From Leptogorgia sarmentosa (taxonomy: Eukaryota), in assembly GCA_964658305.1 (NCBI GenBank), contig OZ210885.1, forward strand, positions 9,486,001 to 9,550,000: DNA of 64,000 nt. Reading direction: 5' to 3'. Made by a program: the position numbers and the translations under genes. How positions within the stretch are numbered: position 1 is the first letter of the stretch; each line of letters begins with the position of its first letter. Shown one piece after another: positions 2,091-49,289 of the stretch. A model generated the notes under the pieces. The model saw only the letters and a list, made by a program, of their open reading frames with translations, was not told the origin of the DNA and did no database searches.

Positions 2091-4457
2091 CTGGCACAAA
2101 AAAAAACAAGGGAAAGCAAAGTACATGATATCCTAAATATATTCAATAACTCGATCATTGACAGGGGAGATTTTCATTTATGCATTCTGCATGTCCAGGC
2201 AATGGATTCTGCAGCAGTCCATATACAGAAAGTTGATTTTGTTAATACCGTTAGGATATTGAAGAGAAATTTACGCAAAAAAGAAATCATTCTTCTAGTT
2301 AGTTTTGCATATTATGTTAAAGCTCATTACCTCCGCGAGGAGGTTATGTAATCATCTCTTCGTTGCCTTATTTTTTAAATATGAATGCGTAATGAAGTTA
2401 TTTGATATTCTGGATGTGTTGTGTGAATTAGTATATTTACGGTACCGTACGGGTTGTTTTAGGAAATTCAACAAAGAGCAACAGTCTTGCGCACCATCTA
2501 AACGATAGAAACAGATTTAACGTTTCGATGAAACGTCCTTCCTCGTGAATTGGCGTGTTCACTAATGTAGTTAATCAGTGGATAGCGCAATCTTACATGT
2601 GAACAACCAACCCGTTACAGGAACGTTATAAATTGTTACAGCACGAGACCTCCTCCACTACACGAGCGGGAGGAGTTGAAAATTGATTTCTTTCACCAGT
2701 TGACACTTGACAAGTATTACTATTTACGCATGCGTTGCACCACAATGAATTTTTCCACGATTCTTGCTCCATCGAGTCATCGATTATATACAGGATTATC
2801 TCCGAGCCTCATATTAATTGGACTATATCAAATGTCTATATACATAACTATATATGATACCGATCTTGAACAATATATAATTATCTTGTGTCGCATCACA
2901 AATAGGTAAAGTCGTACATTACAGAACTTCAGCATTCAGTAAGTTGTTGCTGGGTCTTCCAGCAACACAAAATAGATAGTAAATATCTTTCCCGTATAGA
3001 TGACAAGTTTGGTAGGGATTTTTATAATGGGGATATTTTACGATCGGGTTAATTTGGTTCCAGATTTTCTAACTACAATACAAATAAAAGTTGCATTTTT
3101 AGTACTCAGTTGTGTTGGTAGTGGCTTTATTAACAGAGAGCAAAGAGTCTACTCTCCACCTAAATAACATAAACGGCGGCCATGGCTAGAAATATGCGAC
3201 ATGCAGTATTACGCAATGGGCATTCGGACTTTCAAAATGCTCGTAAATTTATAGTATGCAGCAACGCAAAATAGTATGTTTTCTTACATGCGAAGTATAA
3301 ACATGGTAAATCGACTTGTAACGAATCAAAAAAGCAAAATATTGTGATATTTAGAAGCCGATAAACCTTGTCCCCGAGCGATTCAAACGTATCCATGCAT
3401 TGTAGCGTATTAGCCGCCATTAATCATCAATTCTTATATACTTCACTGAAAGAGAGCGGTGTTTTAGGATACATGAAATACAAATTCCAACATGCGAAGC
3501 TTGATTTGTCAAGATGGGGTTTCGGCGGCTTCAACTAATATAAAACCTTTAAAAGGTTACGTATCTTTCCCTTGTCCAGCTTTACGTTTATGTTCGATAG
3601 TTATGGATATTTCAAGCAAAGTGAAGCACTTTGCCGAACATAAACGTAAAGCTGGAACATCTGCTACCTACACTGGTCACATATTCATACTTCAATTATT
3701 ATCTATCAGGGGTTATGTGTATTGTGTACGTTGACCTGAAACCGTCATCATATAGGTCTGAATGAAGTTGATGTATAGTTTGTCTTAAATCTTGCATGAG
3801 AATCCATTCCATAACACATGGTAAATTAGTAACTTACTGAATCTGTCGAAATTTAAAGCTGTTTATGAAATTGAAAGCCAATGCTTCAATGCTCGTATCC
3901 ATATACTGATATACAATTTTACTAGACTATTTTTAATATTAAAATATAACTTACTTCAAACGGACATTTGTTATATTTTCTTATTATATATTATATGTAA
4001 ATGTATATTTCTTTCGGTTCTGCTTTAAAATATGTCAGTACGAAGTCCTGGAATGGATTAAAAGTGAAGTTACAGGTTTCAAAGCAAAGCGCAAAACGCG
4101 GATGTCGTGCAGTTTAAGGCAGAGGTTCCAGTCCATGCCTTGGATTTTCAGGATCTGATACAAAAAGAACACAAATGTGTTCTTTCATTTTAAGAACACA
4201 TCTGATATAACATCAGAAAATCAAAGTTACAGGTTTATGCCAGTCAACGGAAAACTGCGTATTACATATACTGGCACTTGCACGCTGATGATTTCCTCTT
4301 TGTTTTCTTCATGAATTATTAATGCTTTTCACAAGTATATGTACCCATGTTTTGTAAAAATTGTATACATTCCTAATAATGAATACGCCGAGTCGAAATG
4401 TGGAACGAACAGTTAAAAAAATTTCTTGTGTTTGGATGTTTCTATTGTTTTGTATTT

Positions 4458-4603
4458 CTATATGCACAGTATGACTAGTAGCCTTGTGTACTGCACCTTT
4501 ATCGAGGACTTCCATGAGTTGAAGATATTCCCATTCTTTGACAGCGACACGACATATTGATCATCAGCAGAGACTGCAACATCTTTTGCCCATTCAAGTT
4601 CAC
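4458..4603 (-). CDS. Probable terminal exon 12: partial WD40
   Basis: caatag|GT gives GELEWAKDVAVSADDQYVVSLSKNGNIFNSW...LCI*. The 5' part is WD-like; the true 3' end is uncertain. Confidence 0.6.
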
Positions 4604-7600
4604 CTATTGATCAAGAAGGAAAAAATAATCAATTCAGAAATTGAAGTAAACATTAAAAGTATATTTCTGTAACCGTCACAAATAGGTTGTGCATGATCAT
4701 AAAAATCTTAGCAATTTAAGGATTTATATACAATGAAAAGAAAATTCTTGAAGAGTGGATTAAATACTGTATCTAATATGGCTGGATACTTTAACAAGCA
4801 GCAAAAGTTCTACTCACCAACTGAACGATATGGCAGTGAATTTGTTTTGTAACGTTTAGGTAGTAAGTAGAACTTTTGTTGCTTGTTGATGTTATTATAT
4901 CCGGAACCTACACAGCAGTTTTATCATAGAAGATATTTTCATCATCACAAATGGAGATGTATTTTTCACTTGTAAAAAAATGCACACATTGAGCTATCGC
5001 TAGCACCTCCATTCATATGACGTTGCATTGATAAACAACTTTGTAGCAATAAATTACGATGAACTACTAGACTACCATCCTTTAAATATTTATAATGTAA
5101 GAACTGGTGGAATTGTGAGAAAGTACATTAGAATGCGATACGATTTAGCGGATTGTGAAAAGTCAAGATGCAAATATATATTGTAATGTAATATATTATT
5201 GTTCCCACATGCTGGACCATTTGTCAATATTTTAAATATATATAAGTTTCATAAAAAAATCTGGTTTGTATTTATTACCGATAATAGGAGGGATTTGCAC
5301 AGAAATTAATCAATGCAAACACGATATAGGAATATTCGCGCCCTCTCACCCATTTAGCCACACCAAAATTGTGCAAATTTACACTTATTCAGTGTCCGCT
5401 GAACACTTCGGAATTTAGAGTTTGGTCGCATATTGAACCTTATTCTAGTGGACTAGACCATAAACTATCAAAAGAATGGACTGGAAACGCACGCTGAAAC
5501 TGCACAACAACCGTGATACGCTTTATGTGGAACCACGTAACTTCACATTAAATCCTTTCCAAGACTTCGTATAGACATATTTGAAACCAGAAGAGAAATG
5601 AGTGGGCAAAAATTCATTGTTGCAATAAGTGGTGAGAAATTTTATATCTTGATATTTTGCTTGCGTTGTGTTTGTCATTGTTGCCTTTCAGTATCAAATA
5701 TTCCGTATCTCTACACTCTTCTTTATACTCCTGTAATAAACAAATTACTTCCCAGTTGCTCGTTTGCACCGTTATATACTCGCTGTGATCGCTAAGCTCA
5801 CGATCGTATAAGCTAAGATCGTATTTAGCGATCCATCACAATTGGTAAATAAAAATTATATGCACTCGCCAACCGTGAAGTAGCCAATATCTATGTATTG
5901 TCTTTCCATCTTAGACAGTCGCCAAATCTCATAAAACATTTCCCTTTCGTCAATGATGTAAATAGAGATGTCTACCGTACGATTCGCAAATAATAAAATT
6001 CGAACAAACGAGACAACTGCACATGAAGTAATTTGTTTATTATATGAATACAAGGAATAGTGTAGAGATATGGAATATTTGATACACACAGACGACAATG
6101 ACAAACACAACACGAGCGAAACATCAAAATATAAAATATCTTAGCTTACTGTATTGCTTTGTTTTCAAGGAGGTTTATATCGTCATTCTGCATGAATTTA
6201 GTTGAAATTTTGTAATTACGATTGGTTATAAGAATACCAAAGGAATTCTTTTCTTTACATGCAATTATCTTAGGGAATACAAATCAAAAGGCAATTAACG
6301 TAGGCCTAATTAATCTACGAAAGCCTGCTATCCATTCAAATGTACTTAACCACCGGTTTTCTGTCTTCATATCAGTGCAGAGCGTTGCGCAGACAAGAAC
6401 GTTTCTCATTAACTATTCCGATTTGCTTATTATACACGAGTTCTACAAGATTTGAATTTCCAGGTAAATTTGTTCTACGTAAAAATAGTAGTTTTTGAAC
6501 ATGGTACAGTACTTGAAGCACAAAAATTAACAAGGTTGAGGCTAGGTTCATATGAATTTAGTAAAATGAAAATAAATTTAGTGAAATGAAATGAAAACGA
6601 GATCGTCCGCAACCTATTTATAAGAAAGCTGGCCCAAATAGACAATTTGAACTATACCTGTGACAGAAAAGCACTGTGTGTGAAGATTCCAAACTCTGAA
6701 AGTTCCATCTCTAGATGCGGAAACACATCTAGAGTCATCACGAGCGACTGTAATACCTGTGACATCATTTGAATGATCAGAGAAACTGTTTTCTTCCATG
6801 TACGCAGCAGTTCCCAGGTTCCAAACCCTGATACTTCCATCCCCTGACGCTGTCAATGCCTTCTTTGCATTGGGAATTATTGCAAGACCGCTGAAATATT
6901 AAAAGCTGATTGTTTATTTCGAATAATAATTTGTTCTACCGAAAAAAGGCAAAGACGATCTCTGCCAGACCATTGATTGTTCAAGAAACCAATGTTATCA
7001 AAATATGCTGTATAATTTATTCATAAATGATCAGGGAAATATGTCGTATTCATCAAATGTTAGTGCAAATGAAAACTACATCTAAGGTCACTTCATATTT
7101 TGCAAAAATCTTTCTATTACTATGTCGACAACAATTAAGAAGATAGATAGATAGATAGATGGGAGCCCTATAGACATATTGTGGAGTTCAGCACTCTTGA
7201 TAATCAACGAAAGCAACAATACAAGATAGAGTAATGATAGATGTACAACAGGTAAAATTATGTTGCATGGGATGTCATACGCTTCGGACTAGATTTTAGT
7301 CTAAGCAAGATGAACAAAATCTTTCACCAATTAGTAATACTGCAAAATTCAATCGCAAAAGGTTGCAAAGTACGGAAAATACAGTTGACAAATTTGTATA
7401 CTTTTTGTATTTGCGTGAATTAGTAACAAATTTAATTATCAGTTTCAGCGCCCGTCATACAAATGGATACCAATCTGCAACTTCGCACGGCTATATTTTC
7501 CGTATTCAGCACTTTTCGCATTCAACACCCAGGACGCGGGCGAGTGGGCCGGGCAGGCAACTGCACCCCCCTCCCATCCCCTCCGATGACTTGCCAGAAT

Positions 7601-10600
7601 TCTGACAACGATCTTTTTGTAAAAATGAAGGAATCTAGACTTCAACAAGATTTATTAGGTCTGTCCCCAAACCCGCCTAGAGCGTAATCACTAATGTGCA
7701 TTTTCAAGCGCCCAATCGTGAGTTTTTTTCGATGTATTATTGGATGTATTATCCAACATTTCACAACCAAACATTTAGTTTTTCTAATTTTGATAACGTC
7801 ACAAAATGTCCTTCGTTTATGTTTAAAATCTTTCTAAAGCGCAAGTCGTCTATTGCATTGCAGATAAGCTTAAAGTATGTAGCACGGCTATAGCCAGAGC
7901 AAATTAGTATAATGGTGAAATAAATAGAAATTCTTATATGACTGAAAATTAACTTCATGGAGTTCATGCTCGCTATCTTTTCAAGTAATCAAAAACCGAT
8001 TTCAGAAAGCAGTACGTCTTAGTCTGACTGTGAAATATTGTATTAAATGTATACAATGGATAAGACAGAATATGGAGCGTCATAAGCTTAATGTTATATA
8101 TTGGGTCTTCGTTGTTGCCTTGCCATATAACGATGCTTTCGAGAAAATACCGGCAAATTAAATAGTTCCTGGAGTGAACCCACCTGATGTCCGCGGAATG
8201 ACCTTCATAACAGGAAAGTGACTTTCCAGTGTGGAAACACCACAACCTCACACAACCTTTAAGGTCTCCAGAAATAATATACTTTTTATCACCGCTCACA
8301 GCAATACTGGAAACAAGACATCGAACGTCAAGGGTACGAATTTCCTGATACGTTTTTAAATCCCAAATTTTTATTGTCCCATCGTATGAACCAGACACAA
8401 GCATTGGATTGTTCTTTCCTGAATCTAAACGAGAAACTTCGCACTTTAGTCGAACTGGCACAAAAAAAAACAAGGGAAAGCAAAGTACATGATATCCTAA
8501 ATATATTCAATAACTCGATCATTGACAGGGGAGATTTTCATTTATGCATTCTGCATGTCCAGGCAATGGATTCTGCAGCAGTCCATATACAGAAAGTTGA
8601 TTTTGTTAATACCGTTAGGATATTGAAGAGAAATTTACGCAAAAAAGAAATCATTCTTCTAGTTAGTTTTGCATATTATGTTAAAGCTCATTACCTCCGC
8701 GAGGAGGTTATGTAATCATCTCTTCGTTGCCTTATTTTTTAAATATGAATGCGTAATGAAGTTATTTGATATTCTGGATGTGTTGTGTGAATTAGTATAT
8801 TTACGGTACCAAATTTGGGTGAAAATTTATTAAGCCCCACCATCTACTTAGTCCCCTCTTCAGATAAGCGGCCACCTGAAAGCAGGAAAACATAAATATC
8901 CCCCAAGGGGCTAAATAGAGGAAATACGGTAGTCTTTCTTTAAGCTGATCGAATAGTTAATTTCCCAATACGTGTTTAATTGGATTTTATACAAAACACA
9001 CTTCTTTCTCGTTTATTAAAAATAAATAGGAAATACGCAGTCGTAATCAACGTTTAATTTGGGCCGCAAAGTTCGAAAGTTTTGTTGAGGAAATATTCGA
9101 GTACCCAAATTTATAATTGCTATTTCTACTTATATCCATACTATGTACTGTAAAGTTAAGGAAAAGTCAAATGAAAGATCGTAAGAACTCTGCGTTGGTG
9201 CAATTACTCAAAACCAGAGTGTAACAGTACTGAACAGTACGTACACTGTAGCACGTACCCCAATGGGAAATTTTCATTGCTGCATTTGATCATTATTAGT
9301 TTGCACATGTATTCATACTTATGTTTGGGAACATAACTGTGTTTAACTGCTCTTAACTGTTGCCTAACTGCTCTTTCATGTCAATGAGTAGCTGTGAAAA
9401 TTGACTGATTAAATTCAATTATTATCACATTTATTCAAGCAACTAACCTACCAAGTTCTAACAGTACAGCACAATGTTTGTCACAACAATTATAAAACAG
9501 GTCTAACTATATAAATTTTGTCTGTTGGAATAAGAGGATCTGAGGTCAAGATGGACAAGATAAGTCAAACGACACCTGGCTATATACCTTGGCAATGGAC
9601 AGTATATCTAAAACAATATTACTTTACAAACAACATTCATGTTGGCTTCCATTTGTTACTTTATCTATATAATTTCATAAGTCAAAAACAAATGATTATA
9701 TGATTAGTCATATTCTGTTGTCAGCTTGTAATTCAATTCATTCTCCTGTAATTGAATTCTATTATATATTGTAGTTCAATTCGATATGTGTGCATTAATT
9801 AGATACATGTGAAACGGCTAGAATTGTTCCTGGTCGATATATCCCTATGAAATGCATTTCAGAGCAGTGGCGTAGGATGGTGGGGCACTTGGAAGGAGCC
9901 CCCCCTAACTTTCACGGTTATAAGAAAAAGTGTCATTTTAAAAAAGAAAGTCCCCTTCTTTCATGCTTAGGATTTGTACAGCTTTCTGATAGACATGAGA
10001 ATTTGCCCAAATGTACTAAAATATCCTGTAGGATTCCATCATTCACTAGCTTTTATATGTTTTGTTTGAAAATGCCGCCTTGCTGATTGCAAGTTGCAAA
10101 TACAGTAATAAGTTTTCCCAACCAAAAATATCATGTCTTCTGGTTGCTAAGTTATCGAAAGTTAAAGTTGAAACTTATGTAAAGTTGCAACATTTAATAG
10201 TAAAGATTTGGATTCTGTTCTCCCTGTGCCTCCCCCCCCCCTCCCCCCCAAACTACAACTTGATTCGTATGCCCTTGTTTCATAGCCTGCTTCTACTTTT
10301 AGGGCAGACTATTATTACTTACAAGAGGTCTAAACGCTAATAAAATATACAATACCCTGCCTAAATGCCAAGTCTTTTGAATCTACTTGTACATTATCAC
10401 AATTTATACATTTAAGGTCTGCGACACAGGGTAATCAGTTGAAATATACACACACAAGCAAATTGTCTCAAAGTATATTTAGAAAGCTAGCATAGATAAA
10501 TCTAATGGCCATTTTAAATACTCTTAGCATATACAAATACAACCAGCCTAAAAATTTGAAAGAAATCAGAAAGTCCTAAAATAGTGCTTGTACATGAAAG

Positions 10601-40600: not shown

Positions 40601-43600
40601 ATTTTCAGCCATTTTGTTTTAAGCTCACTTGAGTGAGATCATTAATTCGTCCTACTCACTATATATGAAGTAATAGCTAGTGAGTAGCTCAGCCAATCAG
40701 ATTACAGAATATCTCATATATAGTGCTTGTCTATGTAATAAATATATATATACCTTTTAAGATCAGCGACTTTCTCTCGAGCACAGCAAGTATATCTTTG
40801 TGTTTCTGAGGTTTGCGCGAAGTTTTTCCACTCTGGTTCTGTATCGAACACCACAGCAGCTCGAGTACATCTGACGGTATATCTGTATCCTCTGGAAATA
40901 TAGCCAAATATAGAAACATCTCGCGTACACTTTCGTCTAGGCGTTGATAGCTCACATCAATGACTGCTAAGAGGTTATCATAAGGATAATCGACTTTGGG
41001 AAATAATATACGAATTCTCTCCAGGTCAGCATTTTTAAGATCATCTAAAACATCCTCCCAGTCTTGTTCCGCACGAGTGTCCGTTAAATTTGAACCCACC
41101 AGTGACACAGCCAGCGGTAAACCTCGACACTGCTCTAACAGGTCTGCAATAATTCGCCGTAAGTTTGGCGTTAACTGTTCGTCTGGACTTATCCCGGCGC
41201 TCCGATACAAGAGCCCTCGGGATTTATCTTGTGGCATAATAACAAGTTCGTACTTGGTAATTCCCGAGCCGCAGAGAACAGTAGCATCTCTAGTTGTTAT
41301 TAATAATTGGCATTTGCCAGATAAGCAATTGAATACAGCAGCGTCGTCCACCTTCCAAACATCATCAACAACAACCAAACAATCTTTATCAATCTAAAAA
41401 TGAGTTGAAAACTAGCTCAGAAACCGTATCTGTTAACTGCATTCAAAGGTTGGTAAAATTTACCACTCTTACTAGCCAAGGCATTCAAAGGCTCGCTTGC
41501 AATTTTTTAGTGGCATTTTCTGGCCTTTCTGATATACGAGGCACATGTTGATTTATGACGAATGTTCTGATTTTATTATTTCTGAATTCCGCAACTGGTT
41601 TAGTCTTTCACCTCAATAATAAAACTCGCACTAGAAATCGCTGCAAAAATTGCAAGTGTAAAAGAGTCCCAGCTGCCATCATCTCACCACCAATGCATGA
41701 GATGAATGAGGTTTTTAACGAACTGAGAAAGTAGAGGTACTATTTATCATTTATAGACCCGGGGGCTACATATAATCGTCGAAATATTTCATGAAGACCT
41801 GATGGCTTTAGCCCAAGGGAAATATCATCACTGCATGAAGGAAATATTTTGACACATCAGTCGTATGCAAATATATATTGCTTTCGTTTAACAAGAATGC
41901 ACGAGTTAAGAATTGTGCTTTATTTACAAATACTTACACGAACTGGCTGTACAACGCACGAGAAATTTTCAATACTGAACAAGGCGAAGCCGGGTTAAAA
42001 TGCTAAATTTATTTTAAAAATTAAAGACAAGTAATAAAGCTTACCGCCCTGGGTAAGTGGTCGTGCGAAAGAAAAGACTTGGAAGAATTGCCACTATTCT
42101 ATATTTAACGTCCATCTAACATCAGACTTCTACATTTAACGTCGCTTTAATTTACGTTTACCAACGCTGTACCGGATATATTTTTCTGTATTCGTGCAAC
42201 TTGGCTATTCGAGCTACATCCCATTAAAAATCGTCCCTATCTTGAAAATAGCCCTATCACATTTTCTCACAAACATCAAATATAGCACAGCATACATACC
42301 GTGTATTTTCTTAACCAAGATTGCGCTGCAACAATATCACTGAACGACACATCTCCACCAAGGACTCTGACGAGGGTGTTAATCAGTTTCAAGCGATCAG
42401 GTGTTTGACCAATGTCAAGCCAGACAGCTTGACGAGATTTTGAGACTTCCCAGGCAACAGCTTGGGCTAACACCGTCTTACCGAGGCCTCCCATTCCACG
42501 GATACCAACGTCGCCACCATGACGTCCAACAACACCCACTTTATTTCCCTGCTTGAGTAACTCCAATATCTCGGTTACTTCTGATGGCCTTTCCACCATG
42601 TGAGCAGGTAGATTGCGTAATCCATACGGAACTAGAAAATCGAATAAAATACAGATGATAATTTTGAAATCACTCTGCTGCACGCTTCAAATAATTGTGT
42701 ATACCAGAATGCATAGTTGTAAAATTTAAACTTTGAACATTAATTTCGTTCAATAGTTTACGTCGCTCTGGCATTAAAATCTCTTGCTACAGTTTGCAGT
42801 GTATGGTTACTGAAGTGAGTCTGAACTTTATTTAAACTTTCGCAACAAAAGCAATTTGTAGTGTGGTTTACAGTTATTGATGAGAAGTTTCTACGTTGTG
42901 GCTGTTCCTATTTGGTCGTTTATGCTTGCGCGCGCAGAAGTTGCTAATTGGTACAGTCTTTCCTCGCCACCTGTACTGCAGGGTGAGAGAACTTGGAGTA
43001 CGTTATGATTTTGAAGTGCTGTCCACTGCGTGCAGTGGTGATATAAAGATTTATGAAATATCGTTTTAAAAAATCCGTGTTTCTATAACACTATAGCTAG
43101 AACAAGGGCGTCAATCCTGGGGGGGATGGGGGGACGCGTCCCCCCCCACTTTTTGAAGTGGGGGGGGGGACGAATATCTAATTATCCCCCCACTTTTTAC
43201 CACATTAAAAAAAATTTTTTTTTGGTAATCTTAAAACCCCATGCCTGTATGCTTATATATCGTGAATTGTGAAGTACAATCAACAATCTGAGATCAGAAG
43301 AAAACTATTCGGAGCCTTCGAATAGTTCTGCGAATGAAATCCTCATTGGAAAAGCAATAAACGGACCTCAGCCACGTACACACGTTCAAATTTGCTTTTG
43401 TTTTTACCGACCACTGTATGTACAATGATCAAATCATTTCATTTGCGATTCAAATCTTTTTTTTTATTTATTAAAAATAATACCTGTTCAAATAATACAC
43501 ATGCATTCGACATCGACAAAAAATTCTCATAATTTAGGCAAGAAATTCAGCGGAATAACTTTAGTAACGCTGAAAATGGCATTTGTGCATGAGGTTTCAA

Positions 43601-46600
43601 ATTTCAAAATTTTTCTGGGAAGCATGCCCCCAGACCCTTCTAGAAAGGGGCACGCTTCATTACTATTTTACAACAGACAAATTTTCGCCCCCCCCCCATA
43701 AGCGTACGAGGCGGGGGGACAAGGGGGGCAACCCCCAAAAAATTGAAATCGGGAAATTCGGGCACCGATTTTCAGCATAATTCGGGCAAAAATTTGAGGA
43801 ATAAGGTAATGTCAACAATCCTCCAGTCGTTCACCTGAACGACCGTGCCAAGAAAGTGGAGTTAGGACTCTGAAATCGCCGTTTCCGGCAATCCAGAGGT
43901 TGTAAAAGTTCAAAAATTTCTCGCTCGGCACCAACCATGGTGGCGCCTCGTGACATTTGGTACCCTCAATTTCGGGCAAACATGTTTCTGCCCCCCCCCT
44001 GAAAAAATGTAGCCCTTACGCTTATGGTCCCCCCCACTTTTTGGGACGGATTGACGCCCTTGCTATAGAAACACGAGGATTTTCACGCGGGTTGCGTGGA
44101 TTGCGCGGGAAATTAAAAAACCAAACGAATCTTTGAATGAATGCAATTAAAATCAATAAATTTATCTTTTTTATTGTTTTTAAAAGGCTATTTAATAAAG
44201 GAAATAGAAAACACTTTTTCCGTGTTCCTATAAGTTATAGAAACACTTGTGTAAGTTTGGGAGAAACTCGAAATTGTGTGGAAACACTCGCACTTCGTGC
44301 TCGAGTTCCCACGGAATTTCTCGTTTCTCCCAAACTTCCACGCGTGTTTCTATAACTCTATAGAAACACGAAAAATGTTTTCTATTTCTTAAATTGCATT
44401 CGAAACCATGCTAATATGTACCTACATATACAAATAAGAATTAGACATTCTAGAGTATGATTCGGCTTCTGGACAGCCGAAGTTTCATTGTATACAGGGT
44501 GACTAAAAAAAAAGGTAATCGAACTTCGGCATGCCATTGTGCGTTAATTACTGGGTATGAACGTAATTTTTGCATGGTCATAAAGATCAGGGTCTCAGCT
44601 GTTGAATGAAATGTTTTTTGTGTTATTATGAGCAAAGCAGAATGAATATGAGAGCGATTAAAATTGACGGTCGAAATTGCATATTTTCACCTCTGTGCCT
44701 AAGCATAACAAAAGAAAAATGCAATTAATCACGAATGTGTCATGGTAACAAAGATTATTAATAATTATGCATAATCAGGTCGTTTGTTGAAGGGAAGGTC
44801 GTCATCTTCGAGTCTCAGAAGGAGTTAATTTCGAATAAGTTTAGCCGCAATTCTCACGGGTGAGAATATGCGATTTCGACCAACGATTTTTAATAGACTC
44901 ATACGTGCTCTGTTTTACTCAAAATGGTACAAAAAACTTGTCGTTCAACAGCTAATAACTTGCTCTTTATGACCATATAAAAATTACGTTCATACACCCA
45001 GCAAATAGCGCTCAATGGCATGTCAAAGTTGGATTACATTTTTTGCGACACCCTGTATATCGCGCAGCGTCCATTCCAGTTAGTTGAAGCTTTCAAATCA
45101 TGCTATAGAATAAAGCTATAAACATCATTTACAGCATGGATTTTTAGAAAGTAGTTCAAACGAATAGTGACATCTCGGCAATCAGAGCCTCTAAAGTCAC
45201 AGAAGTGGCAACCAGCAAGCTGACCAGTCTCTTCATACAAGTCACATAATTTTGCCGACAGAACACTTTTCCCATCGCCGGGACCTCCATTTAGGATCAT
45301 AACTCTCGATTTCGTATCGTGAAGCCAATTTTCAAAGTCGTCAAAGAACCATTGTCTGGTTCCTTGAAATTTTCGAATAAGCTGGTCAATCTTTCCATTA
45401 AAGACAAATTTAGCTCATTTTCAGAAGATTTTATATTTTCTACCACAGTTCGCAACTTGACAACTTGGCTTTCAACATTGGCTATACTGAATCTCCTATT
45501 AATGAAGCATCTTAGGACATAAATCAAAAGAAGCATTCAAATACTATCAGCAACATTTAAGCATTCTTGTACCAATTGAGCTGCGTCAACTTTTCACGAG
45601 CGTTTTTTATTTGGTTGTGACCTACGCAGTTAATCCGCCCAACATTAAAATTCATTTTTAGTGATGATGAGTGCGACAGCGCGTACTGCACTGCCAATGC
45701 TTGCGGATTCCCACTAATTCTGGGAAGTGTTAGAAGACATATTGGATTCCTGTTGCCGTTTACTCTAACGAGATATTTTCCTACAAAAAATTCTTAGAAC
45801 GTTGAAGACCGGGAAGGTTCGTGGGGGACAAATTTCGAAAATTGAATGGCTGCCTGATACTCTGCAAATTTTTCCGCATTATATATTCTGCATAAATAGT
45901 TTCCCATCTTCCCTAGTTGATTGAAACACTACCTTTTTTCTCTGCAAAATCTGAATGCTCCGTCCACGGCTTTTTCTGTCGACATTCGATTTCATCTGTT
46001 TTCTCCGCCAGGCGTTTAAGCTCCATTGAATGATGTTCAAGTTTCTCAGCTGCAGACCTTTCAACCTCTTTAATTTTGCGAAGCAGTGTGGATTGTATGT
46101 TATCGAGTTTCTCCTTCACTGGATTTATCTGAATAGATTAAATTGATTTAGTAATATTCAATTTACGGGCTGAAACAAATTTGAAATCACTCTCAACTTC
46201 ACAAAGCGGCTTTAGGTGTGTGATGTAATAATAGTTATATAATCTAACGTTATATCGTATAGGTAATTGTATGGTTTCGAGTGCAATTTGGAAAAACATG
46301 TAGGAGTAAGTTTTTCAAAGACATTCAAAATTGCACGAGTCCAAAGGACGAGTGCTATTTGAAGTCTTTGAAAAGCTCATGAGTGTATGTTTTTTCCAAA
46401 TTGCATGAGAATTTAAATAGAATATACTTGTCTCGCTTTGTTCTGCCGCTAATATACGGAGATGTTTTGCTTGTCCACCGAGCACTTGCTTGGACGAAGA
46501 GAAATCTCTGTCTTGTATTATAAAAAGATTGTCAACATCGACTGCTGTTAATATCACTTTTAACCTGTCTGGTTCATATTCATGTCGTTTCTTTTTAAAT

Positions 46601-49289
46601 TCACAGTTTTCGTTCAGCATAAAAACAATCGAGCAAAATATATAATCTAACACCTGCTGCGGAATATTTTGTACTCGCGCTGTACTTCCTTTTCAATGCA
46701 ACACTTTATCCGCACAATCAACCACAGGAATAGATATCTTTCCTGGTATTTTCATTTTTCAAACTATTTTTAAGCCCCTCTATCATTTGTCTGTTGCCAA
46801 AAAAATCTACCCAAAGAGGCAGCTATTTTTTCATCCTCGAATAATTTCATATTTTGTTATTGTTCGCCAGAAATGGCTTAATCTGATTGGATAGCTTTGT
46901 AATCTCAGCCAATCATAGGACATTAACATGAATTTACTTTTTTGGCACTGTATTTCCTTAAAATTGCACTGCTCTCAGCTGCCACTCTGTGGACTTGGTT
47001 TGTTTGAACAGCGACGCACGCCCGTGTGAGCTTTATCAATATTTTCCTGACTTTAATGGTTGGGATTTTAGAGAAAGGGAAATTGCTTCGCCGATCTTTT
47101 ACGGGCTACCCACATGCGTACCTATTTTTCCTCTCTTATAAATTGGCCCATTTTTCTCAAAATTTTCGAATTGCCATCGAATAATTTTTACCTCACTATG
47201 AGGACGAAATATTGCAATGCTTAGTCGACACAGATGTAAAGTCGAATACGAGCTAAAATTTTTGTGACGACATTATACAGGGTGTCTCAAAAAAAAGGTA
47301 ATCCAACTTTGGCATGCCATTGTGCGTTAATTACTGGGTGTACGAACGTGATTTTTGCATGGTCATAAAGATCAAGGTCTTGGCAGTTGAATGACATATT
47401 TCTTGTACGATATGGAAGAAAATCAGGCAAATGCGAGCGTGTTGAAAAATCTCGGTGAAAAACGCATTCTTTCACCTCTGAGAATTGCAGCTAAACTTAT
47501 TCAAAATTAACTCACTCTGGGACTCGAAGATGACGACCTTCCCTTCAACAATCGACCTGATTATGCATAATTATTAATAATCCTGATAAAATCTTTGTTA
47601 CCATGACACATTCGTGATGAATTGCATTTTTCTTTTGTTATGCACTGCTTTAATTAGGCACAGAGGTGAAAGAATGCGTTTTTCACTGAGATTTTTCAAC
47701 ACGCTCGCATTTGCCTGATTTTCTTCCATATCGTACAAGAAATATGTCATTCAACTGCTAAGACCTTGATCTTTATGACCATGCAAAAATCACGTTCGTA
47801 CACCCAGTAATAAACGCACAATGGCATGCCAAAGTTCGATTACCTTTTTTTTGAGACACCCTGTACATAAGGTCTATTGAAATCTGATATGCAAGTTTCC
47901 TAGTCTGTAAACTTTTCAGAAATTTATAGTTCAACGTTGGAACCTCAATAGCAATTTTGCAAGGAAAAATAATTGTTATCTATCAAAATTTAGGTTTAAT
48001 GGGATGTCCCAGCCCCTTGGGCTAGTTTTTTCCCCCCTAAAAGAGTATTTATATTAGTATTTATCAGTAATTGATATGTAGTGTGTTTTATTTATCAGTA
48101 CACACTTCGTTCTAAGTATTCTATTGCAAACGTCTCCCCCAAAAAGTATGAACATGTTTGACTTGCAACGTTTAACGGGTAAAGCAAAACTCATAAAAAC
48201 AGCATTATCGAAAAAAAGCACAGATTGCGTTCCCACGCTGAAAATTTGCACTCGCTCGCATTTGAAACATGTCTTATATTAATTTGAACAGCGTCGTCCT
48301 ACTTATTCAACGACTGTTAAATGAAACATCAAAAGTTCCTCAAACCTTTGTGGCGTCCAAATCGTAGTTTTTGATACAACGGCAAAGTTCAGCTACACTT
48401 TCTGCAATTAGTTTTGCGTGACGACCATCAACAAGAATGTCTGGAAATAATGAAGAAAATTTATCTTGAGTATCACAAACACTATAAATCTATATGCGTT
48501 CAACGATTGATCGTATTCAGAATCGCATTGTATTGTATATATGGTAATAAATGAATAAAATTGGATAATAATAATAATAAATGAATAATAAGAGAAATTC
48601 TTTCAACACATGGGGGTTTTCTTACAGGAGATCAAAAATGATCTGCGCAAAACATATTTAAAGGCATGATGAAATTCCGGCAATAATGCTAATAATACAG
48701 TACCTGTTTTATTCCAGAAATCTAGGTCATCACAAATTATTTTTTCGTCAGCTGCTGGTAAATTTAATATTTTGACCAAAGATTCCATTGCTTGAAACGA
48801 GTCATTGAACATATGTAGTGTCCATTCAGAGATGTTACAATGAGCCCATGGGTTTCTGATGTCCGACCGGACTTTGTTTGCTTCAGCTGCAGCACCAGAA
48901 GATACAAAAGGAGCTGCCTTGCCGATAATAGTCAAAAGTGCTGACATATCCATGGTGCCATCAAATCCAGTGAAATGTGCCATAAAGTCCGTGACGAATA
49001 GTTTCGCCAACGAGACAGGATCTTTAACAGCATAATCATAAGCTGATTTAGTAGGCTTGTGGATAATGTTATTGTTAATGTTTTTATATTGTAGGTTATG
49101 GGTGGAAGGGGGTAATTTCTTCCTTCTGTATGCTGCGAAATCTTGCTTGTGAATTTCATCAGGTGGTTGGCATAAAGAATTATACCACTTCCCAAGTTCA
49201 GTGGCGACAACTTTCCTCAATGCAGGTGCAAGAACTTTGGTAAAGGCAATGCCAACTAAAACCCAATGTTGTTCTTCCTCTGATATCAT
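4458..49289 (-). CDS. 12-exon gene encoding HEPN-like domain + coiled coil + NB-ARC (APAF-1-like) + helical domain + WD40 repeats, about 1199 aa
   Basis: Exons 49289-48704, 48440-48346, 46128-45933, 42631-42300, 41393-40754, 39059-38637, 19878-19633, 16609-16391, 12281-12069, 8454-8184, 6890-6658, 4603-4458. All introns are GT-AG, phases match (1,0,1,0,1,1,1,1,1,2,1), total 3600 nt with no internal stop. Confidence 0.85.
6658..6890 (-). CDS. Exon 11: WD40
   Basis: ALTASGDGSIRVWNL...DHSNDVTGITV...VSASRDGTFRVWNL. Confidence 0.88.
8184..8454 (-). CDS. Exon 10: WD40
   Basis: MLVSGSYDGTIKIWDL...IISGDLKGCVRLW...YEGHSADI. Confidence 0.88.
9865..10277. mobile_element. hAT-type MITE
   Basis: CAGTGGCGTA...TATGCCCTTG; TSD TTTCAGAG/TTTCATAG (7 of 8 match). 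Confidence 0.7.
10872..12048. repeat. Nested palindromic interspersed repeats (TTATTATATGGC / GCCATATAATAA family)
   Basis: Internal hairpins such as ggacctcgccttcggctcggtcc. One copy interrupts another at gggaaa|gtattg. Confidence 0.6.
12069..12281 (-). CDS. Exon 9: WD40
   Basis: VVTSLCTTKDGQFIATVGSHLDKTIKLW...LVGHTRTVTCV. Confidence 0.88.
12883..13479 (+). pseudogene. Internally deleted hAT transposase remnant
   Basis: An N-terminal zinc-finger-like segment (ERWLSVFEGLKY...YYCTICQ) is fused directly to a hAT C-terminal-like segment (KIKLRTKMSQAFLNSLVRIRYNGP). A hAT-like end ...gcccctg lies at about 15149. Confidence 0.65.
13762..15048 (-). mobile_element. Non-autonomous Helentron-like element (HINE)
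   Basis: Subterminal inverted repeats TAGTGCAAAGTTTC (13778) / GAAACTTTGCACTA (15035-15048), terminal atcc-aa-ggat hairpin, tgac/tgaa microsatellite. 14720-15048 resembles 38280-38570. Confidence 0.7.
13794..13917. mobile_element. Small TA-flanked MITE
   Basis: TIR AGGCCTAGGTCGAACGTCGAAC / GTTCGACGTTTCACCTAGGCCT. Confidence 0.75.
15514..16016. mobile_element. hAT-type MITE (old)
   Basis: CAGTGGCGTAA...TTACGCCGCTG; TSD degenerate. Confidence 0.5.
16391..16609 (-). CDS. Exon 8: WD40
   Basis: LLGHSRIVNCLAVSQSEAILASGAFDKSTILW. Confidence 0.88.
18232..18594. mobile_element. MITE
   Basis: TIR TAGGGACCTTAAGATCTACAACG...CTCGACGACG with its inverse at the right end. Confidence 0.85.
18825..19175. 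repeat. Palindromic interspersed repeat; second copy at about 61035-61385
   Basis: Shared gattggctaaaaagcttcaacaactgtg and the hairpin tgcacttgtgtttggcgaaa...tttcgccaaacacgcgtgca. Confidence 0.75.
19633..19878 (-). CDS. Exon 7: end of helical domain and first WD40 repeat
   Basis: Joins exon 6 to give QLLGRLL across an 18.8-kb intron; VWSLATS...GLRNGSITIFDL. Confidence 0.85.
20812..21199. mobile_element. hAT-type MITE
   Basis: TIR CAGGGGCGAAA; perfect 8-bp TSD ATTCTGTA. Confidence 0.9.
23235..23555 (+). repeat. 31-bp subterminal tandem repeat, about 10 copies (MULE left end)
   Basis: CGGAATGAGAAAATGCGGAATCTTTAAAACC units. Confidence 0.95.
23994..25112 (+). CDS. Ser/Thr protein kinase inside the MULE (ORF runs to 25202; likely splice donor at 25112)
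   Basis: GERSFGEV, VVVKKL, FIKEV, HRDIKPANILV, LADFGES, GTLVYNSPE, CDVWSLG. Phase-0 donor CAG|GTAACT. Confidence 0.9.
25550..29276 (+). pseudogene. MULE transposase with SWIM zinc finger and C-terminal Cys/His finger, disrupted
   Basis: D1 GIDPTF, D2 GTDGE, CxxH RCFLHF, E TNNDPEAAN, SWIM CDRTC...KICEH, C-terminal KCYGC...HFHLNRTC. Introns 25995-26222 and 27290-27639. Apparent frameshifts near 25705, 26280 and 26600, and a stop at 28963. Confidence 0.85.
29535..31348. mobile_element. Non-autonomous PIF/Harbinger-type element inside the MULE
   Basis: TIR GGGCCGGTTGTACGAAAGGCGTTTAA; 3-bp TSD CTG. Confidence 0.85.
31483..31630 (-). repeat. Same 31-bp repeat inverted, about 4-5 copies (MULE right end)
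   Basis: ggttttaaagattccgcattttctcattccg units. Confidence 0.95.
32849..34303. mobile_element. Foldback element made of inverted 72-bp minisatellite arrays
   Basis: TIR GGGTATGGGTAAAATGCGGATACGGACGG; perfect 10-bp TSD ATTTCAAAAA (32839-32848, 34304-34313); array orientation flips near 33257. Confidence 0.92.
34865..36432. repeat. Tandem duplication of about 0.77-0.8 kb within the Helitron
   Basis: ORFs recur at +764 and +805; the first copy has a short internal deletion. Confidence 0.9.
38637..39059 (-). CDS. Exon 6: MHD-equivalent motif and APAF-1-like helical domain
   Basis: YRVHDLLLDFA...YYFKYLPYHI...LLFDLHWLKQKV...ICPQLLG. Confidence 0.9.
39850..40209. mobile_element. MULE-type MITE
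   Basis: TIR GCAGAAATTT..TTTGGGATCACTTT; perfect 9-bp TSD ACGCGGTTA. Confidence 0.9.
40754..41393 (-). CDS. Exon 5: NB-ARC Walker B, sensor motif, GLPL, winged helix
   Basis: CLVVVDDVW, LLITTRD, CRGLPLAVSL, SYQRL...LAIFPED...LELLW. Confidence 0.92.
42300..42631 (-). CDS. Exon 4: NB-ARC N-terminal part with Walker A
   Basis: LPAHMVERPSEV...VGIRGMGGLGKTVLAQAV...VWLDIGQ; canonical splice sites. Confidence 0.9.
43103..44062. mobile_element. hAT-type MITE with a nested MITE at 43697-44026
   Basis: Outer TIR CAAGGGCGTCAATCC; inner TIR CATAAGCGTA; TSDs imperfect. Confidence 0.8.
44190..44394. repeat. Palindromic short repeat; partial copy at about 27390-27536 in the MULE intron
   Basis: gaaatagaaaaca...tttgggagaaactcgaaatt...aatttctcgtttctcccaaa...tgttttctatttc. 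Confidence 0.8.
44495..45055. mobile_element. Tc1/mariner-type MITE (copy 1)
   Basis: TA-flanked CAGGGTG...CACCCTG with long TIRs. Confidence 0.85.
45170..45481 (-). pseudogene. Frameshifted, truncated NACHT NTPase exon
   Basis: AKFVFNGKIDQLIRKFQGTRQWFFDDFENWLHDTKSRVMILNGGPGDGKSVLSAKLC...LAGCHFCDF. Frameshift near 45415; similarity ends before Walker B. Confidence 0.8.
45933..46128 (-). CDS. Exon 3: coiled coil
   Basis: INPVKEKLDNIQSTLLRKIKEVERSAAEKLEHHSMELKRLAEK; acceptor ttcag, donor AG|gtagt. Confidence 0.75.
47278..47863. mobile_element. Tc1/mariner-type MITE (copy 2, inverted relative to copy 1)
   Basis: TA|CAGGGTGTCTCAAAAAAAAGGTAATC...|TA; TIRs of about 200 bp. Confidence 0.9.
48346..48440 (-). 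CDS. Exon 2: short helical linker (not in the ORF track)
   Basis: tttccag|AC...AAG|gtttga encodes DILVDGRHAKLIAESVAELCRCIKNYDLDATK and converts phase 1 to phase 0 exactly as needed. Confidence 0.7.
48704..49289 (-). CDS. Exon 1: DZIP3-type HEPN-like N-terminal domain
   Basis: MISEEEQHWVLVGIAFTKVLAPALRKVV...DMSALLTII...KVRSDIRNPWAHCNISEW. The Rx4H motif is at 48840-48857. Donor AG|GTACTG. An acceptor just upstream (exon start 49296) implies a further 5' exon. Confidence 0.8.

What the first reader, a model, noticed from the sequence alone, without database searches (positions are those of the whole stretch)
4458..49289. Animal APAF-1-like STAND protein with a putative HEPN RNase in place of the CARD
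Seen: 12 exons splice in frame to about 1199 aa with complete NB-ARC motifs (GMGGLGKT, VVDDVW, ITTR, GLPL, VHD), an APAF-1-like helical domain and WD40 repeats. The N-terminus has no death-fold domain but carries RNPWAH in a DZIP3-type HEPN context, followed by a coiled coil. Established: HEPN RNases (RNase L, Ire1 KEN domain, Cas13, many bacterial toxins) use Rx4-6H and need dimerisation. STAND ATPases oligomerise on ligand binding, and bacterial Avs/NLR-like defence proteins couple this to nuclease effectors. Inference: this could be a one-protein sensor-executioner, with WD40 sensing, NB-ARC oligomerisation and HEPN-mediated RNA cleavage, acting in invertebrate innate immunity without caspases. 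The ORF stays open although its introns are full of decayed transposons, which suggests selection.
Basis: partly seen in the sequence, partly recalled or inferred. Interest (0 to 1): 0.9.

Follow-up and report, generated by a model that had tools for sequence, protein, structure and literature searches.

The report
APAF-1-like sensor with HEPN head
An expressed 12-exon coral-type gene encodes an APAF-1-like switch protein whose usual caspase-recruiting head is replaced by a domain that is likely a HEPN RNA-cutting module, so it would kill or defend by cutting RNA instead of calling caspases; the general theme (HEPN on animal NLR-type proteins) is already known, this APAF-1 version is not.

Summary
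On the minus strand, 12 exons (49289 to 4458, all introns GT-AG) give one open frame of 1187 aa. It has a 195-aa N-domain with RNPWAH (145-150), a K/E/L-rich linker, NB-ARC (GMGGLGKT, VVDDVW, ITTR, GLPL, VHD), the APAF-1 helical domain and WD40 repeats. Contigs of two transcript-like runs join E1-E2, E4-E5 and E5-E6 at the predicted bases, and a loose end fits E2-E3. In-frame stops precede the ATG, so no hidden CARD lies upstream.

Two transcript-like homologs (P0001, P0138) share the whole architecture. In a tree, the three form a 100/100 clade inside octocoral APAF-1-like proteins that carry DED or Death heads.

The N-domain has no Pfam hit, but five lines point to a HEPN fold:
- RNxWAH is invariant in 16 of 16 sequences.
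- It aligns to real DZIP3-type HEPN domains (hhalign E 3.5e-4, controls far lower).
- The motif sits at the end of a helix, as HEPN requires.
- Its structural matches to Swt1, Csm6 and SO_3166 HEPNs are as strong as those of a positive control.
- 7 of 14 members weakly hit HEPN_Swt1.

RNase activity, the E3-E4 junction and the 3' end are untested. HEPN-NACHT fusions are already described in cnidarians, so this is a new variant, not a new kind.

The parts
48704..49289 (-). Coding exon 1 (aa 1-196): ATG at 49289 and the HEPN-like N-domain with FTGFDGTMD (106-114) and RNPWAH (145-150). The exon itself starts at an AG acceptor at about 49296/49297, spliced to 5' exon(s) not present in the window.
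   Evidence: ORF; donor G|GTACTG; the E1-E2 joint 48704|48440 in X4 and X5; loose ends at 49297 and in-frame stops before the ATG
48346..48440 (-). Exon 2 (aa 196-227), a helical linker
   Evidence: Co-linear with P0001 'ILVDGRHAKL'; joint with E1 in X4 and X5; the X5 loose end at 48346 matches the start of E3
45933..46128 (-). Exon 3 (aa 228-293), a K/E/L-rich coiled-coil-like linker
   Evidence: depth 567 (X4) and 195 (X5) in its bin against 0 in the next intron bin
42300..42631 (-). Exon 4 (aa 293-403): begins at the conserved junction VPYGLRNLP; NB-ARC P-loop GMGGLGKT
   Evidence: Pfam NB-ARC 9e-6; X4 record 20 joins 42300 to 41393; the junction motif is shared by P0001 and P0135-P0142
40754..41393 (-). 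Exon 5 (aa 404-617): NB-ARC Walker B VVDDVW, ITTR, GLPL, and the start of the winged helix
   Evidence: Pfam NB-ARC 5.6e-18; APAF-1 1z6t E 6.5e-17; the E5-E6 joint in X4 and X5
38637..39059 (-). Exon 6 (aa 617-758): VHD motif and the APAF-1 helical domain (HD2)
   Evidence: Pfam APAF1_C 3.3e-11; APAF-1 E 3.4e-6
19629..19878 (-). Exon 7 (aa 758-841): end of the helical domain and the first WD40-like blade. The junction with E8 is ambiguous by 4 nt (19633|16609 gives the same protein).
16391..16605 (-). Exon 8 (aa 841-913), WD40
   Evidence: Pfam WD40 9.6e-9
12069..12281 (-). Exon 9 (aa 913-984), WD40
   Evidence: Pfam WD40 3.6e-7
8184..8418 (-). Exon 10 (aa 984-1062), WD40
   Evidence: Pfam WD40 2.7e-13
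6658..6890 (-). Exon 11 (aa 1062-1140), WD40. The donor ACAG|GTATAG is at 6658; reading through instead reaches a stop at 6614.
   Evidence: Pfam WD40 4.4e-12
4458..4603 (-). Exon 12 (aa 1140-1187), with the stop ending at 4458. An alternative donor AAG|GTGCAG lies at 4497, where longer relatives continue into a second propeller.
   Evidence: Weak co-linear match to P0138 1151-1168 (67% over 18 aa, E 0.031); acceptor and frame
45172..45488 (-). Not part of the gene: a frameshifted pseudo-exon inside intron 3, derived from the octocoral HEPN_DZIP3-NACHT-WD40 family (P-loop GGPGDGKS)
   Evidence: Pfam NPHP3_N 3.2e-13; 142 family hits; two HSPs in different frames with a stop between them; depth 1.9 (X4) and 27 (X5), against 140-570 on the exons
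1..2446 (.). Exact second copy of 6365-8810, carrying copies of exons 10 and 11 (2054-1820 and about 526-294)
   Evidence: blastn: 37-2446 equals 6401-8810 at 100% over 2410 nt; tblastn

Best explanation
This is an intact, spliced and expressed gene for an APAF-1-like STAND ATPase (NB-ARC, winged helix, APAF-1 helical domain, WD40 propeller) whose N-terminal death-fold head is replaced by a domain that is likely a HEPN fold and is predicted to be an RNase switched on by oligomerisation. Shown: the 12-exon open frame, the domain order, spliced transcripts, the absence of any upstream coding exon, two further proteins with the same architecture, and their nesting among DED- and Death-headed octocoral APAF-1-like paralogs. 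Well supported but indirect: the N-domain is a HEPN of the DZIP3/Swt1 kind with an intact R-N-x3-H site. Inferred from known STAND and HEPN biology: an unknown ligand sensed by the WD40 propeller(s) releases the NB-ARC switch; nucleotide exchange drives ring assembly as in the apoptosome; the linker and ring bring HEPN heads together in pairs; paired R-N-x3-H sites form the active RNase, as in RNase L, Ire1, Csm6 and Cas13; host or viral RNA is then cut, giving translation arrest or cell death without a caspase step. The head most likely came by exon shuffling from the octocoral NB-ARC-TPR family that carries the same domain, inserted at the phase-1 intron in front of 'VPYGLRNLP'.
For: Gene and expression: all 11 introns are GT-AG and the frame is open for 1187 aa. 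The model is co-linear with P0001. X4 and X5 contigs join 48704|48440 and 40754|39059, and X4 also joins 42300|41393; the DNA-like runs X1 and X2 show none of these joints. An X5 loose end at 48346 equals the start of E3. Stops lie 11 and 3 codons before the ATG in the two 5' forms.

APAF-1 side: Pfam hits; APAF-1 is the best solved homolog; the NOD is 61% identical to D. gigantea 'APAF-1-like' and 42% to Nematostella APAF-1.

Same fusion elsewhere: P0001 (1205 aa) and P0138 (1709 aa), both on transcript-sized contigs, carry the N-domain at 71% and 59% identity. The three form a clade at 100/100, sister to DED-headed P0137 (86/94), inside a 9-row octocoral clade at 100/100. DED and Death heads are confirmed by Pfam.

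HEPN:
- R145, N146, W148, A149 and H150 are invariant in 14 of 14 aligned sequences, and RNxWAH is present in the window plus 15 of 15 homologs.
- hhalign against octocoral PF18738 domains scores 31.9, E 3.5e-4, over 150 columns, with the RN..AH and FD.T motifs in register. Controls score 10.0-16.3 (ten column shuffles), 11.5 (reversed) and 12.8 (unrelated helical domain).
- In the AF2 model (pLDDT 73, pTM 0.70), R145-A149 end helix 133-149 and H150 opens the loop. That is the position HEPN requires (PMC3710099, section 7).
- A positive-control PF18738 model has the same helix order.
- VIA-align: Swt1 HEPN 4pqz Z 7.9 (rmsd 3.3, 120 of 136 aligned), SO_3166 Z 7.0, AbiA 6.5, Csm6 6.2 and 5.8, 1wwp 6.1. 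The control HEPN scores only Z 5.0-7.9 on such chains and shares five of them.
- HEPN_Swt1 is weakly hit by 7 of 14 members, best E 0.026.
- Atlas neighbours carry PF18738 or PF15112 in 11-38% of members.
Against: No Pfam HEPN model reaches significance on the window's own N-domain (0 families at E<=10). Foldseek finds nothing at E<=0.001. The top VIA row is an acyl-CoA dehydrogenase bundle (Z 8.2), and all Z values lie in the range that generic helical bundles reach. The hhalign probability is only 37%, and the comparison set was chosen by presence of the motif. Residues 39-85 and 102-108 of the model are under pLDDT 50. The E3-E4 joint was not among the rows shown and could not be re-examined. 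No run is on record as RNA. Of the 11 exonic differences shown between the assembly and the runs, 7 change the residue and 4 do not, so strong purifying selection is not evident (88 further rows not shown). The 3' end is unresolved. No RNase, dimer or oligomer test was possible.
Confidence: 0.6

Rival explanations
1. The N-domain is HEPN-derived but works as a non-catalytic adaptor: an RNA-binding or homotypic-interaction head that recruits other HEPN proteins (for example the many HEPN_DZIP3-NACHT proteins of the same genome), the way CARD recruits caspase-9.
For: All previously described head swaps in APAF-1 homologs involve interaction domains (PMC2246300, passages). The isolated sacsin HEPN domain is reported as RNA-binding (PMC13669270, search listing only). 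The genome family of HEPN_DZIP3-NACHT proteins is large (PMC8260672).
Against: The full catalytic signature R-N-x3-H is invariant from octocorals to mussels in 16 of 16 sequences, together with an invariant acidic FTGFDxTxD motif. Such conservation is what PMC3710099 (section 6) takes as the mark of active HEPN RNases.
Confidence: 0.2
2. The N-domain is not a HEPN at all but an unrelated helical bundle that happens to carry an RNxxxH string.
For: No Pfam hit. No Foldseek hit. Generic helical bundles score as high as HEPN structures.
Against: The hhalign score stands far above 12 controls, with two motifs in register. The motif sits in the defining structural position. The helix order is the same as in a real PF18738 model, and five HEPN chains are shared with the positive control's top 50. 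7 of 14 members weakly hit HEPN_Swt1. The Atlas neighbours carry HEPN families.
Confidence: 0.1
3. The locus is a decaying or mis-assembled gene, or exons 1-3 and exons 4-12 are two separate transcription units, so no HEPN-APAF protein is made here.
For: The E3-E4 joint was not displayed. Intron 3 holds a pseudo-exon of another STAND family. An exact 2.4-kb duplicate of the last exons suggests assembly trouble. Among the differences shown, 7 are nonsynonymous and 4 synonymous.
Against: The open frame runs through 12 exons with canonical sites. Depth in X4 and X5 is similar on exons 1-6 and near zero on non-repeat intron bins. No start codon or other domain lies between E3 and E4. The E3|E4 junction peptide 'KK-VPYGLRNLP' is reproduced in P0001, and P0138 has 'QK-APYGLRCLP' at the same point. 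The phase-1 donor and acceptor match.
Confidence: 0.07

Closest known systems
APAF-1 and cnidarian APAF-1-like proteins (AP-ATPase / NB-ARC clade of STAND NTPases)
   Same: NB-ARC with Walker A and B, winged helix, the APAF-1 helical domain HD2 and C-terminal WD40. APAF-1 is the best solved homolog, and the gene sits in one clade with octocoral and Nematostella APAF-1-like proteins. The conserved junction 'VP[FY]GLRNLP' lies behind the head domain.
   Different: It has no CARD or any other death-fold head, so it cannot recruit a CARD caspase in the known way. In print, the head swaps are CARD pairs, DD, DED and TIR, all interaction domains (PMC2246300). Only one propeller is visible in the window, whereas APAF-1 has two.
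DZIP3/hRUL138-like HEPN (PF18738) - NACHT - WD40/LRR/TPR proteins of anthozoans and bivalves
   Same: An N-terminal HEPN with R-N-x(3-4)-H, a coiled-coil-like linker, a STAND NTPase and a repeat sensor. These are expanded in the same group of animals: 17-83 per anthozoan and more than 50 in the pearl oyster (PMC8260672, PMC9646362). A pseudo-exon of this family lies in intron 3.
   Different: The NTPase is NACHT, not NB-ARC/APAF-1. The HEPN here is a separate subfamily that Pfam PF18738 does not detect; it is linked to PF18738 only at profile-profile level.
Octocoral and Mytilus N-domain - NB-ARC - DUF7779 - TPR - beta-helix - zf-MYND proteins (P0002-P0013)
   Same: The same N-domain (40-65% identity, RNxWAH invariant) followed by a coiled-coil-like linker and an NB-ARC. 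The APAF-type heads nest among them in the N-domain tree (86/93 and 90/92, midpoint root only).
   Different: A different NB-ARC subtype (NB-ARC-TPR), with beta-helix and MYND tails and no WD40 or APAF1_C.
Bacterial HEPN-STAND and Avs-type NLR-like defence proteins; RNase L
   Same: It works like them on paper: a repeat sensor plus an oligomerising or dimerising switch plus a built-in nuclease. PMC3710099 (section 16) notes bacterial N-terminal HEPN plus STAND proteins. RNase L couples a sensor and dimerisation to a HEPN (KEN) RNase (recalled).
   Different: There is no evidence of direct descent. The NOD here is of the animal APAF-1 clade and the HEPN of an animal subfamily. Activity is untested.
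Yeast Swt1 C-terminal HEPN domain (PDB 4pqz)
   Same: The best HEPN structural match to the model (Z 7.9, rmsd 3.3, 120 of 136 residues). HEPN_Swt1 is the only Pfam HEPN model weakly hit (7 of 14 members).
   Different: 10% sequence identity, and the Z value is in the range of generic bundles. In Swt1 the domain follows a PIN domain, and PMC3710099 says it may be inactive.

Membership tests
HEPN superfamily | Rx4-6H motif with a polar residue (N, D or H) directly after the R (PMC3710099, section 6) | tested here: met
   R145-N146-P-W-A-H150 is Rx4H with N after R. It is invariant in 14 of 14 aligned sequences and present in the window plus 15 of 15 homologs.
HEPN superfamily | The motif lies at the end of core helix 3 and the start of the loop to helix 4 (PMC3710099, section 7) | tested here: met
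   In the AF2 model, helix 133-149 ends with R145-A149, H150 opens the loop 150-157, and the next helix is 158-174; local pLDDT is 90-97. The PF18738 control model has the same arrangement (helix 110-126, R121). This is a prediction, not a solved structure.
HEPN superfamily | Four-helix up-down core with an insert between helices 2 and 3; structural similarity to solved HEPN domains | tested here: inconclusive
   The model is all-helical with a disordered insert at 39-85. VIA-align gives Swt1 HEPN Z 7.9, SO_3166 7.0, AbiA 6.5, Csm6 6.2 and 5.8, and 1wwp 6.1, but also an acyl-CoA dehydrogenase bundle at Z 8.2. Foldseek gives nothing at E<=0.001. A real PF18738 model scores no better (Z 5.0-7.9) on HEPN chains.
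HEPN superfamily | Profile-level sequence similarity to an established HEPN family | tested here: met
   hhalign of the N-domain family against 70 octocoral PF18738 domains: score 31.9, E 3.5e-4, probability 37%, 150 columns. The 12 controls score 10.0-16.3. The comparison set was picked by presence of the motif.
HEPN superfamily | Metal-independent RNase activity dependent on R and H | not testable with these tools
   Needs biochemistry.
Pfam HEPN_DZIP3 (PF18738) | Match to the family HMM at its gathering score | tested here: not met
   0 families for the window's domain at E<=10. PF18738 is absent from the listed families for the 14 members, while HEPN_Swt1 PF18731 is weakly hit in 7 of 14 (best E 0.026, below significance). 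I therefore file it as a separate HEPN subfamily, not as PF18738.
APAF-1 / AP-ATPase (NB-ARC) STAND clade | NB-ARC NTPase with Walker A, Walker B and the GLPL and MHD-type motifs | tested here: met
   GMGGLGKT 338-345, VVDDVW 411-416, GLPL 494-497, VHD 628-630. Pfam NB-ARC 9e-6 and 5.6e-18.
APAF-1 / AP-ATPase (NB-ARC) STAND clade | Winged helix plus the APAF-1 helical domain (HD2), followed by WD40 propeller(s) | tested here: met
   APAF1_C 3.3e-11, Dark_WHD 4.8e-4 (below cut-off), WD40 on four exons. APAF-1 is the best PDB match for both exons. The number of propellers is unresolved.
APAF-1 proper (apoptosome scaffold for CARD caspases) | N-terminal CARD | tested here: not met
   The first 195 aa have no Pfam death-fold hit. 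In-frame stops precede the ATG in both 5' transcript forms. The gene is therefore APAF-1-like, not APAF-1.
APAF-1 proper (apoptosome scaffold for CARD caspases) | Ligand-induced (cytochrome c / dATP) ring assembly | not testable with these tools

The most novel reading that the evidence does not exclude
Octocorals have turned the apoptosome scaffold into a self-contained RNA-cutting death or defence machine. In this reading, an APAF-1-clade ring has an RNase as its executioner, built into the same polypeptide and activated by induced proximity, instead of a recruited caspase. The head would have been acquired by exon shuffling from an NB-ARC-TPR immune family shared with mussels. That would make it the animal counterpart of bacterial nuclease-armed Avs/NLR-like proteins, arising inside the apoptosis lineage itself.
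Probability: 0.45. Interest if true: 0.75.

Novelty: new variant of a known kind. Interest (0 to 1): 0.55.

Why it matters
In every APAF-1 homolog described so far, the head is an adaptor (CARD, DED, DD or TIR) that passes the signal to another protein. If the HEPN head here is active, an apoptosome-type switch can carry its own enzymatic effector. That would link animal cell-death machinery mechanistically to bacterial STAND-nuclease defence and to RNase L-type RNA decay.

The finding also exposes a HEPN subfamily in octocorals and mussels that Pfam-based immune-gene surveys cannot see. Published counts of HEPN-armed NLR-like genes in these animals are therefore likely underestimates. The protein is a compact, testable model for whether animal HEPN-NLR proteins, known only from genomics since 2013, really are RNases.

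Tried and rejected
**The 45106-45536 ORFs as an exon.** I considered that these ORFs (coiled-coil-like plus the GGPGDGKS P-loop) might be a real exon, or a sign that exons 1-3 belong to a HEPN-NACHT gene. I rejected this. The piece is a frameshifted fragment with an internal stop, it belongs to the PF18738-NACHT-WD40 family, it is barely covered in X4 and X5, and P0001 and P0138 have no counterpart at that position.

**The 11-exon model ending at 6614.** I replaced it with the 12-exon model after P0138 and P0135 showed that conservation stops exactly at the 6658 donor. P0001's own end, 2 aa after that boundary, looks like intron read-through.

**Searches that gave nothing useful**
- No RNA holder is listed among the sequencing runs.
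- The search of protein representatives met a full queue 9 times, so no exhaustive family survey was made.
- Complex prediction for a HEPN homodimer was not available (too-early).
- No whole genome is held for this window, so paralogs were not counted.
- phmmer of the N-domain against PDB sequences gave 0 hits at E<=10.
- A profile of A1 against PDB was swamped by TPR and NB-ARC hits.
- Foldseek against PDB gave no hit at E<=0.001.
- The 5' loose-end letters are not found in the window, so the 5' exon(s) lie outside it.
- Earlier scan notes held nothing on this genome or sequence. One unrelated protist note had no bearing.
- Nine of the ten non-kinase intronic ORFs scanned in Pfam had no family.
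Full report
**The gene**

All exon-like ORFs lie on the minus strand. tblastn with the 1205-aa homolog P0001 and a search for GT/AG pairs that keep the frame gave 11 exons. Comparison with longer relatives added a twelfth.

The exons are 49289-48704, 48440-48346, 46128-45933, 42631-42300, 41393-40754, 39059-38637, 19878-19629, 16605-16391, 12281-12069, 8418-8184, 6890-6658 and 4603-4458. Every intron is GT..AG. The joined frame has one stop, whose last base is 4458, and encodes 1187 aa. All quoted motifs are present.

**Domains behind the head**

Pfam finds NB-ARC, Dark_WHD (below cut-off), APAF1_C and WD40 on the expected exons. The best solved homolog of both the NB-ARC exon and the helical-domain exon is APAF-1 (1z6t, E 6.5e-17 and 3.4e-6).

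**Expression and splicing**

No run is on record as RNA. Even so, two small runs of the same organism (X4, X5) behave as transcript assemblies:
- Their depth is 140-570 on exon bins and 0-2 on non-repeat intron bins. For example, it is 0 at 41803-42169 and at 45473-45839.
- Their contigs join 48704|48440 (E1-E2) and 40754|39059 (E5-E6).
- One X4 contig joins 42300|41393 (E4-E5).
- An X5 loose end at 48346 spells the first bases of E3.
- The two DNA-like runs (X1, X2) cover the introns and show none of these joints.

Both transcript-like runs continue upstream of 49297 with letters that are not in the window. The exon with the ATG is therefore preceded by one or more 5' exons. In both forms an in-frame stop lies before the ATG, 11 and 3 codons upstream. 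The protein thus starts with the N-domain, and no CARD is hidden upstream.

The E3-E4 joint (45933|42631) was not among the rows shown. It rests on indirect evidence:
- the matching phase-1 donor and acceptor;
- equal expression of both sides;
- the junction peptide KK-VPYGLRNLP, found again in P0001, with QK-APYGLRCLP at the same point in P0138.

**The odd P-loop in intron 3**

ORFs at 45536-45106 carry a coiled-coil-like stretch and a NACHT-type P-loop (NPHP3_N, 3.2e-13). They match residues about 198-306 of a large octocoral family, HEPN_DZIP3 (PF18738) - NACHT - WD40, with 142 hits. The match falls in two different frames with a stop between them, and the fragment is barely covered in X4 and X5. 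It is a pseudo-exon fragment, not part of this gene. It was useful as a source of genuine PF18738 domains from related animals.

**Is the head a HEPN?**

Evidence against:
- The window's 195-aa domain hits no Pfam family even at E<=10.
- It hits no PDB sequence.
- Foldseek finds nothing at E<=0.001.

Evidence for:
1. *Motif conservation.* In an alignment with 13 homologs from octocorals and Mytilus, R145, N146, W148, A149, H150 and the FTGFDxTxD motif are invariant. With P0014 and P0138 added, RNxWAH is present in 16 of 16 sequences. It is an Rx4H with N after the R, the commonest HEPN form (PMC3710099, section 6; PMC9646362; passages read).
2. *Profile-profile comparison.* I compared the N-domain family with 70 PF18738 domains. 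These were the first 70 of 99 that carried the motif, out of 120 hits. The score was 31.9, E 3.5e-4, probability 37%, over 150 columns, with RN..AH and FD.T in register. Ten column shuffles scored 10.0-16.3, the reversed alignment 11.5 and an unrelated helical domain 12.8.
3. *Position of the motif.* In the AlphaFold2 model (pLDDT 73, pTM 0.70; residues 39-85 disordered), R145-A149 close helix 133-149 and H150 opens the loop to helix 158-174. PMC3710099, section 7, defines exactly this position for HEPN. A positive-control model of a real PF18738 domain (pLDDT 87) has the same helix order.
4. *Structural matches.* VIA-align against 48,161 chains ranks the yeast Swt1 HEPN second (Z 7.9, rmsd 3.3, 120 of 136 residues). 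It also lists SO_3166 (7.0), AbiA (6.5), Csm6 (6.2 and 5.8) and 1wwp (6.1), among generic bundles topped by an acyl-CoA dehydrogenase at Z 8.2. The positive control scores only Z 5.0-7.9 on HEPN chains, and five chains are shared by both lists: 4rgp, 4pqz, 9fcv, 6tug and 1wwp. The Z values alone would not prove a HEPN, but they are what a true DZIP3-type HEPN gives.
5. *Weak sequence leads.* 7 of 14 family members weakly hit HEPN_Swt1 (best E 0.026). The nearest Atlas clusters carry PF18738 or PF15112 in 11-38% of members.

Taken together, I put about 0.85-0.9 on a HEPN fold with an intact active-site signature. I file it as a subfamily of its own, not as PF18738.

**Relatives and origin**

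The N-domain occurs in two architectures.
- Twelve octocoral and mussel proteins combine it with a linker, NB-ARC, DUF7779, TPR, a beta-helix and zf-MYND.
- P0001 (1205 aa), P0138 (1709 aa) and the window's gene combine it with the APAF-1-like module.

I made a tree of the NOD module with 18 rows: the window model, P0001, P0135-P0147 except P0144 (no P-loop found), two Branchiostoma proteins and two cyanobacterial proteins, all chosen from the 120 listed. In it the three HEPN-headed proteins form a clade at 100/100. P0137 (DED head) is sister at 86/94. All lie within a 9-row octocoral clade (100/100) that also holds DED-like, short-headed and double-Death-headed (Xenia) paralogs. The clade containing Nematostella APAF-1 lies outside.

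All these proteins share VP[FY]GLRNLP.DMVERPSEV directly behind the head. In the window this is where exon 4 begins. In the N-domain tree the APAF-type heads nest among octocoral TPR-type heads (86/93 and 90/92, midpoint root only).

My inference is one head swap by exon shuffling at the phase-1 intron, with the NB-ARC-TPR family as donor and a death-fold domain replaced.

**The 3' end**

P0138 and P0135 continue past the point equivalent to 6658 into a second propeller. P0001 stops two residues after it, which looks like intron read-through. The window has a donor at 6658. Exon 12 then matches P0138 1151-1168 weakly. Exon 12 itself has a possible donor at 4497, where the relatives go on.

Downstream, 1-2446 is a 100% identical copy of 6365-8810, with copies of exons 10 and 11. 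This is either a very recent duplication or an assembly artefact. Whether the protein has one propeller (1187 aa) or two therefore remains open.

**Selection**

Of the 11 exonic differences between the assembly and the runs that displayed (88 further rows were not shown), 4 are synonymous and 7 are not; none is a stop. This does not show strong purifying selection. It would fit a fast-evolving immune-type gene, but the sample is small.

**Mechanism (inferred)**

By analogy with APAF-1 and other STAND proteins, ligand binding at the WD40 sensor would release the NB-ARC switch and drive ring assembly. HEPN RNases need two domains to build the active cleft, so assembly, helped by the about 100-residue K/E/L-rich linker, would pair the heads and switch on RNA cleavage. 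No step of this was tested.

**What is known**

- HEPN heads on animal STAND proteins have been described since 2013: DZIP3 and CXorf38 families fused to NACHT, CARD and DEATH, with expansions in Nematostella and oyster (PMC3710099, Table 1 and section 16).
- They have been counted in anthozoans (17-83 HEPN-NACHT proteins; PMC8260672), corals (PMC10236652) and the pearl oyster (PMC9646362).
- Head swaps in APAF-1 homologs are known, but only with CARD pairs, DD, DED and TIR (PMC2246300). 'Unconventional domains' are mentioned in PMC10959488.
- For all these papers I read passages only.
- Full-text searches for HEPN + Apaf-1 (9 papers), HEPN + NB-ARC + WD40 (3 papers) and HEPN + NACHT + coral (7 papers) turned up no description of a HEPN-headed APAF-1-clade protein. 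I did not open supplementary tables.
- Because Pfam does not detect this head, Pfam-based surveys would have missed it (inference).

**Verdict**

It is a new variant of a known kind: a Pfam-invisible HEPN subfamily placed on the APAF-1 scaffold. The RNase mechanism is plausible but untested.

Noticed in passing
window 45172-45488 (-): A frameshifted fragment with an internal stop, derived from a HEPN_DZIP3-NACHT-WD40 family gene (P-loop GGPGDGKS), sits alone inside intron 3 of the APAF-1-like gene. No other part of such a gene was found in the window.
   Followed up: yes
window 1-2446 and 6365-8810: An exact (100%) 2.4-kb direct repeat with a period of 6364 bp duplicates exons 10 and 11. It runs off the window's left edge. 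It is either a very recent tandem duplication or an assembly artefact, and it leaves the gene's 3' end uncertain.
   Followed up: partly
window 23988-25202 (+): An intronless 404-aa ORF with a full protein-kinase domain (Pkinase 6.1e-33) lies on the opposite strand inside the 18.8-kb intron 6. It sits at the start of a G+C-richer block (24-30 kb, 0.41-0.44 against about 0.36) that also holds long ORFs without any Pfam family (26594-27406, 27640-28965). It is a nested gene or part of a large mobile element.
   Followed up: partly
window 32937-34223; 23229-23550 and 31479-31629: Intron 6 holds a 72-bp satellite array (about 1.3 kb, 94-97% matches) whose units read as open frames on both strands. 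Two arrays of a 31-bp unit lie in opposite orientation about 8 kb apart and flank the kinase/long-ORF block, which may mark the ends of an element.
   Followed up: no
window 34859-36310: Two near-identical copies of a segment about 750 bp apart (identical ORFs at 34859-35116 / 35611-35880 and 35311-35505 / 36116-36310), showing further local duplication in intron 6.
   Followed up: no
window 49297 (upstream end of the ATG exon): Contigs of X4 and X5 continue upstream with two different sequences, and neither is found in the window. The gene therefore has at least two alternative 5' leader exons more than 14.7 kb away, or a spliced leader.
   Followed up: partly
window 43638-44371 and 47308-48041: Depth in the DNA-like runs is 20- to 50-fold above neighbouring bins, which marks high-copy repeats in introns 3 and 2. 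These stretches are also moderately covered in the transcript-like runs.
   Followed up: no
window 57224-57916: A 16-bp microsatellite-like array with 43.6 copies lies upstream of the gene.
   Followed up: no
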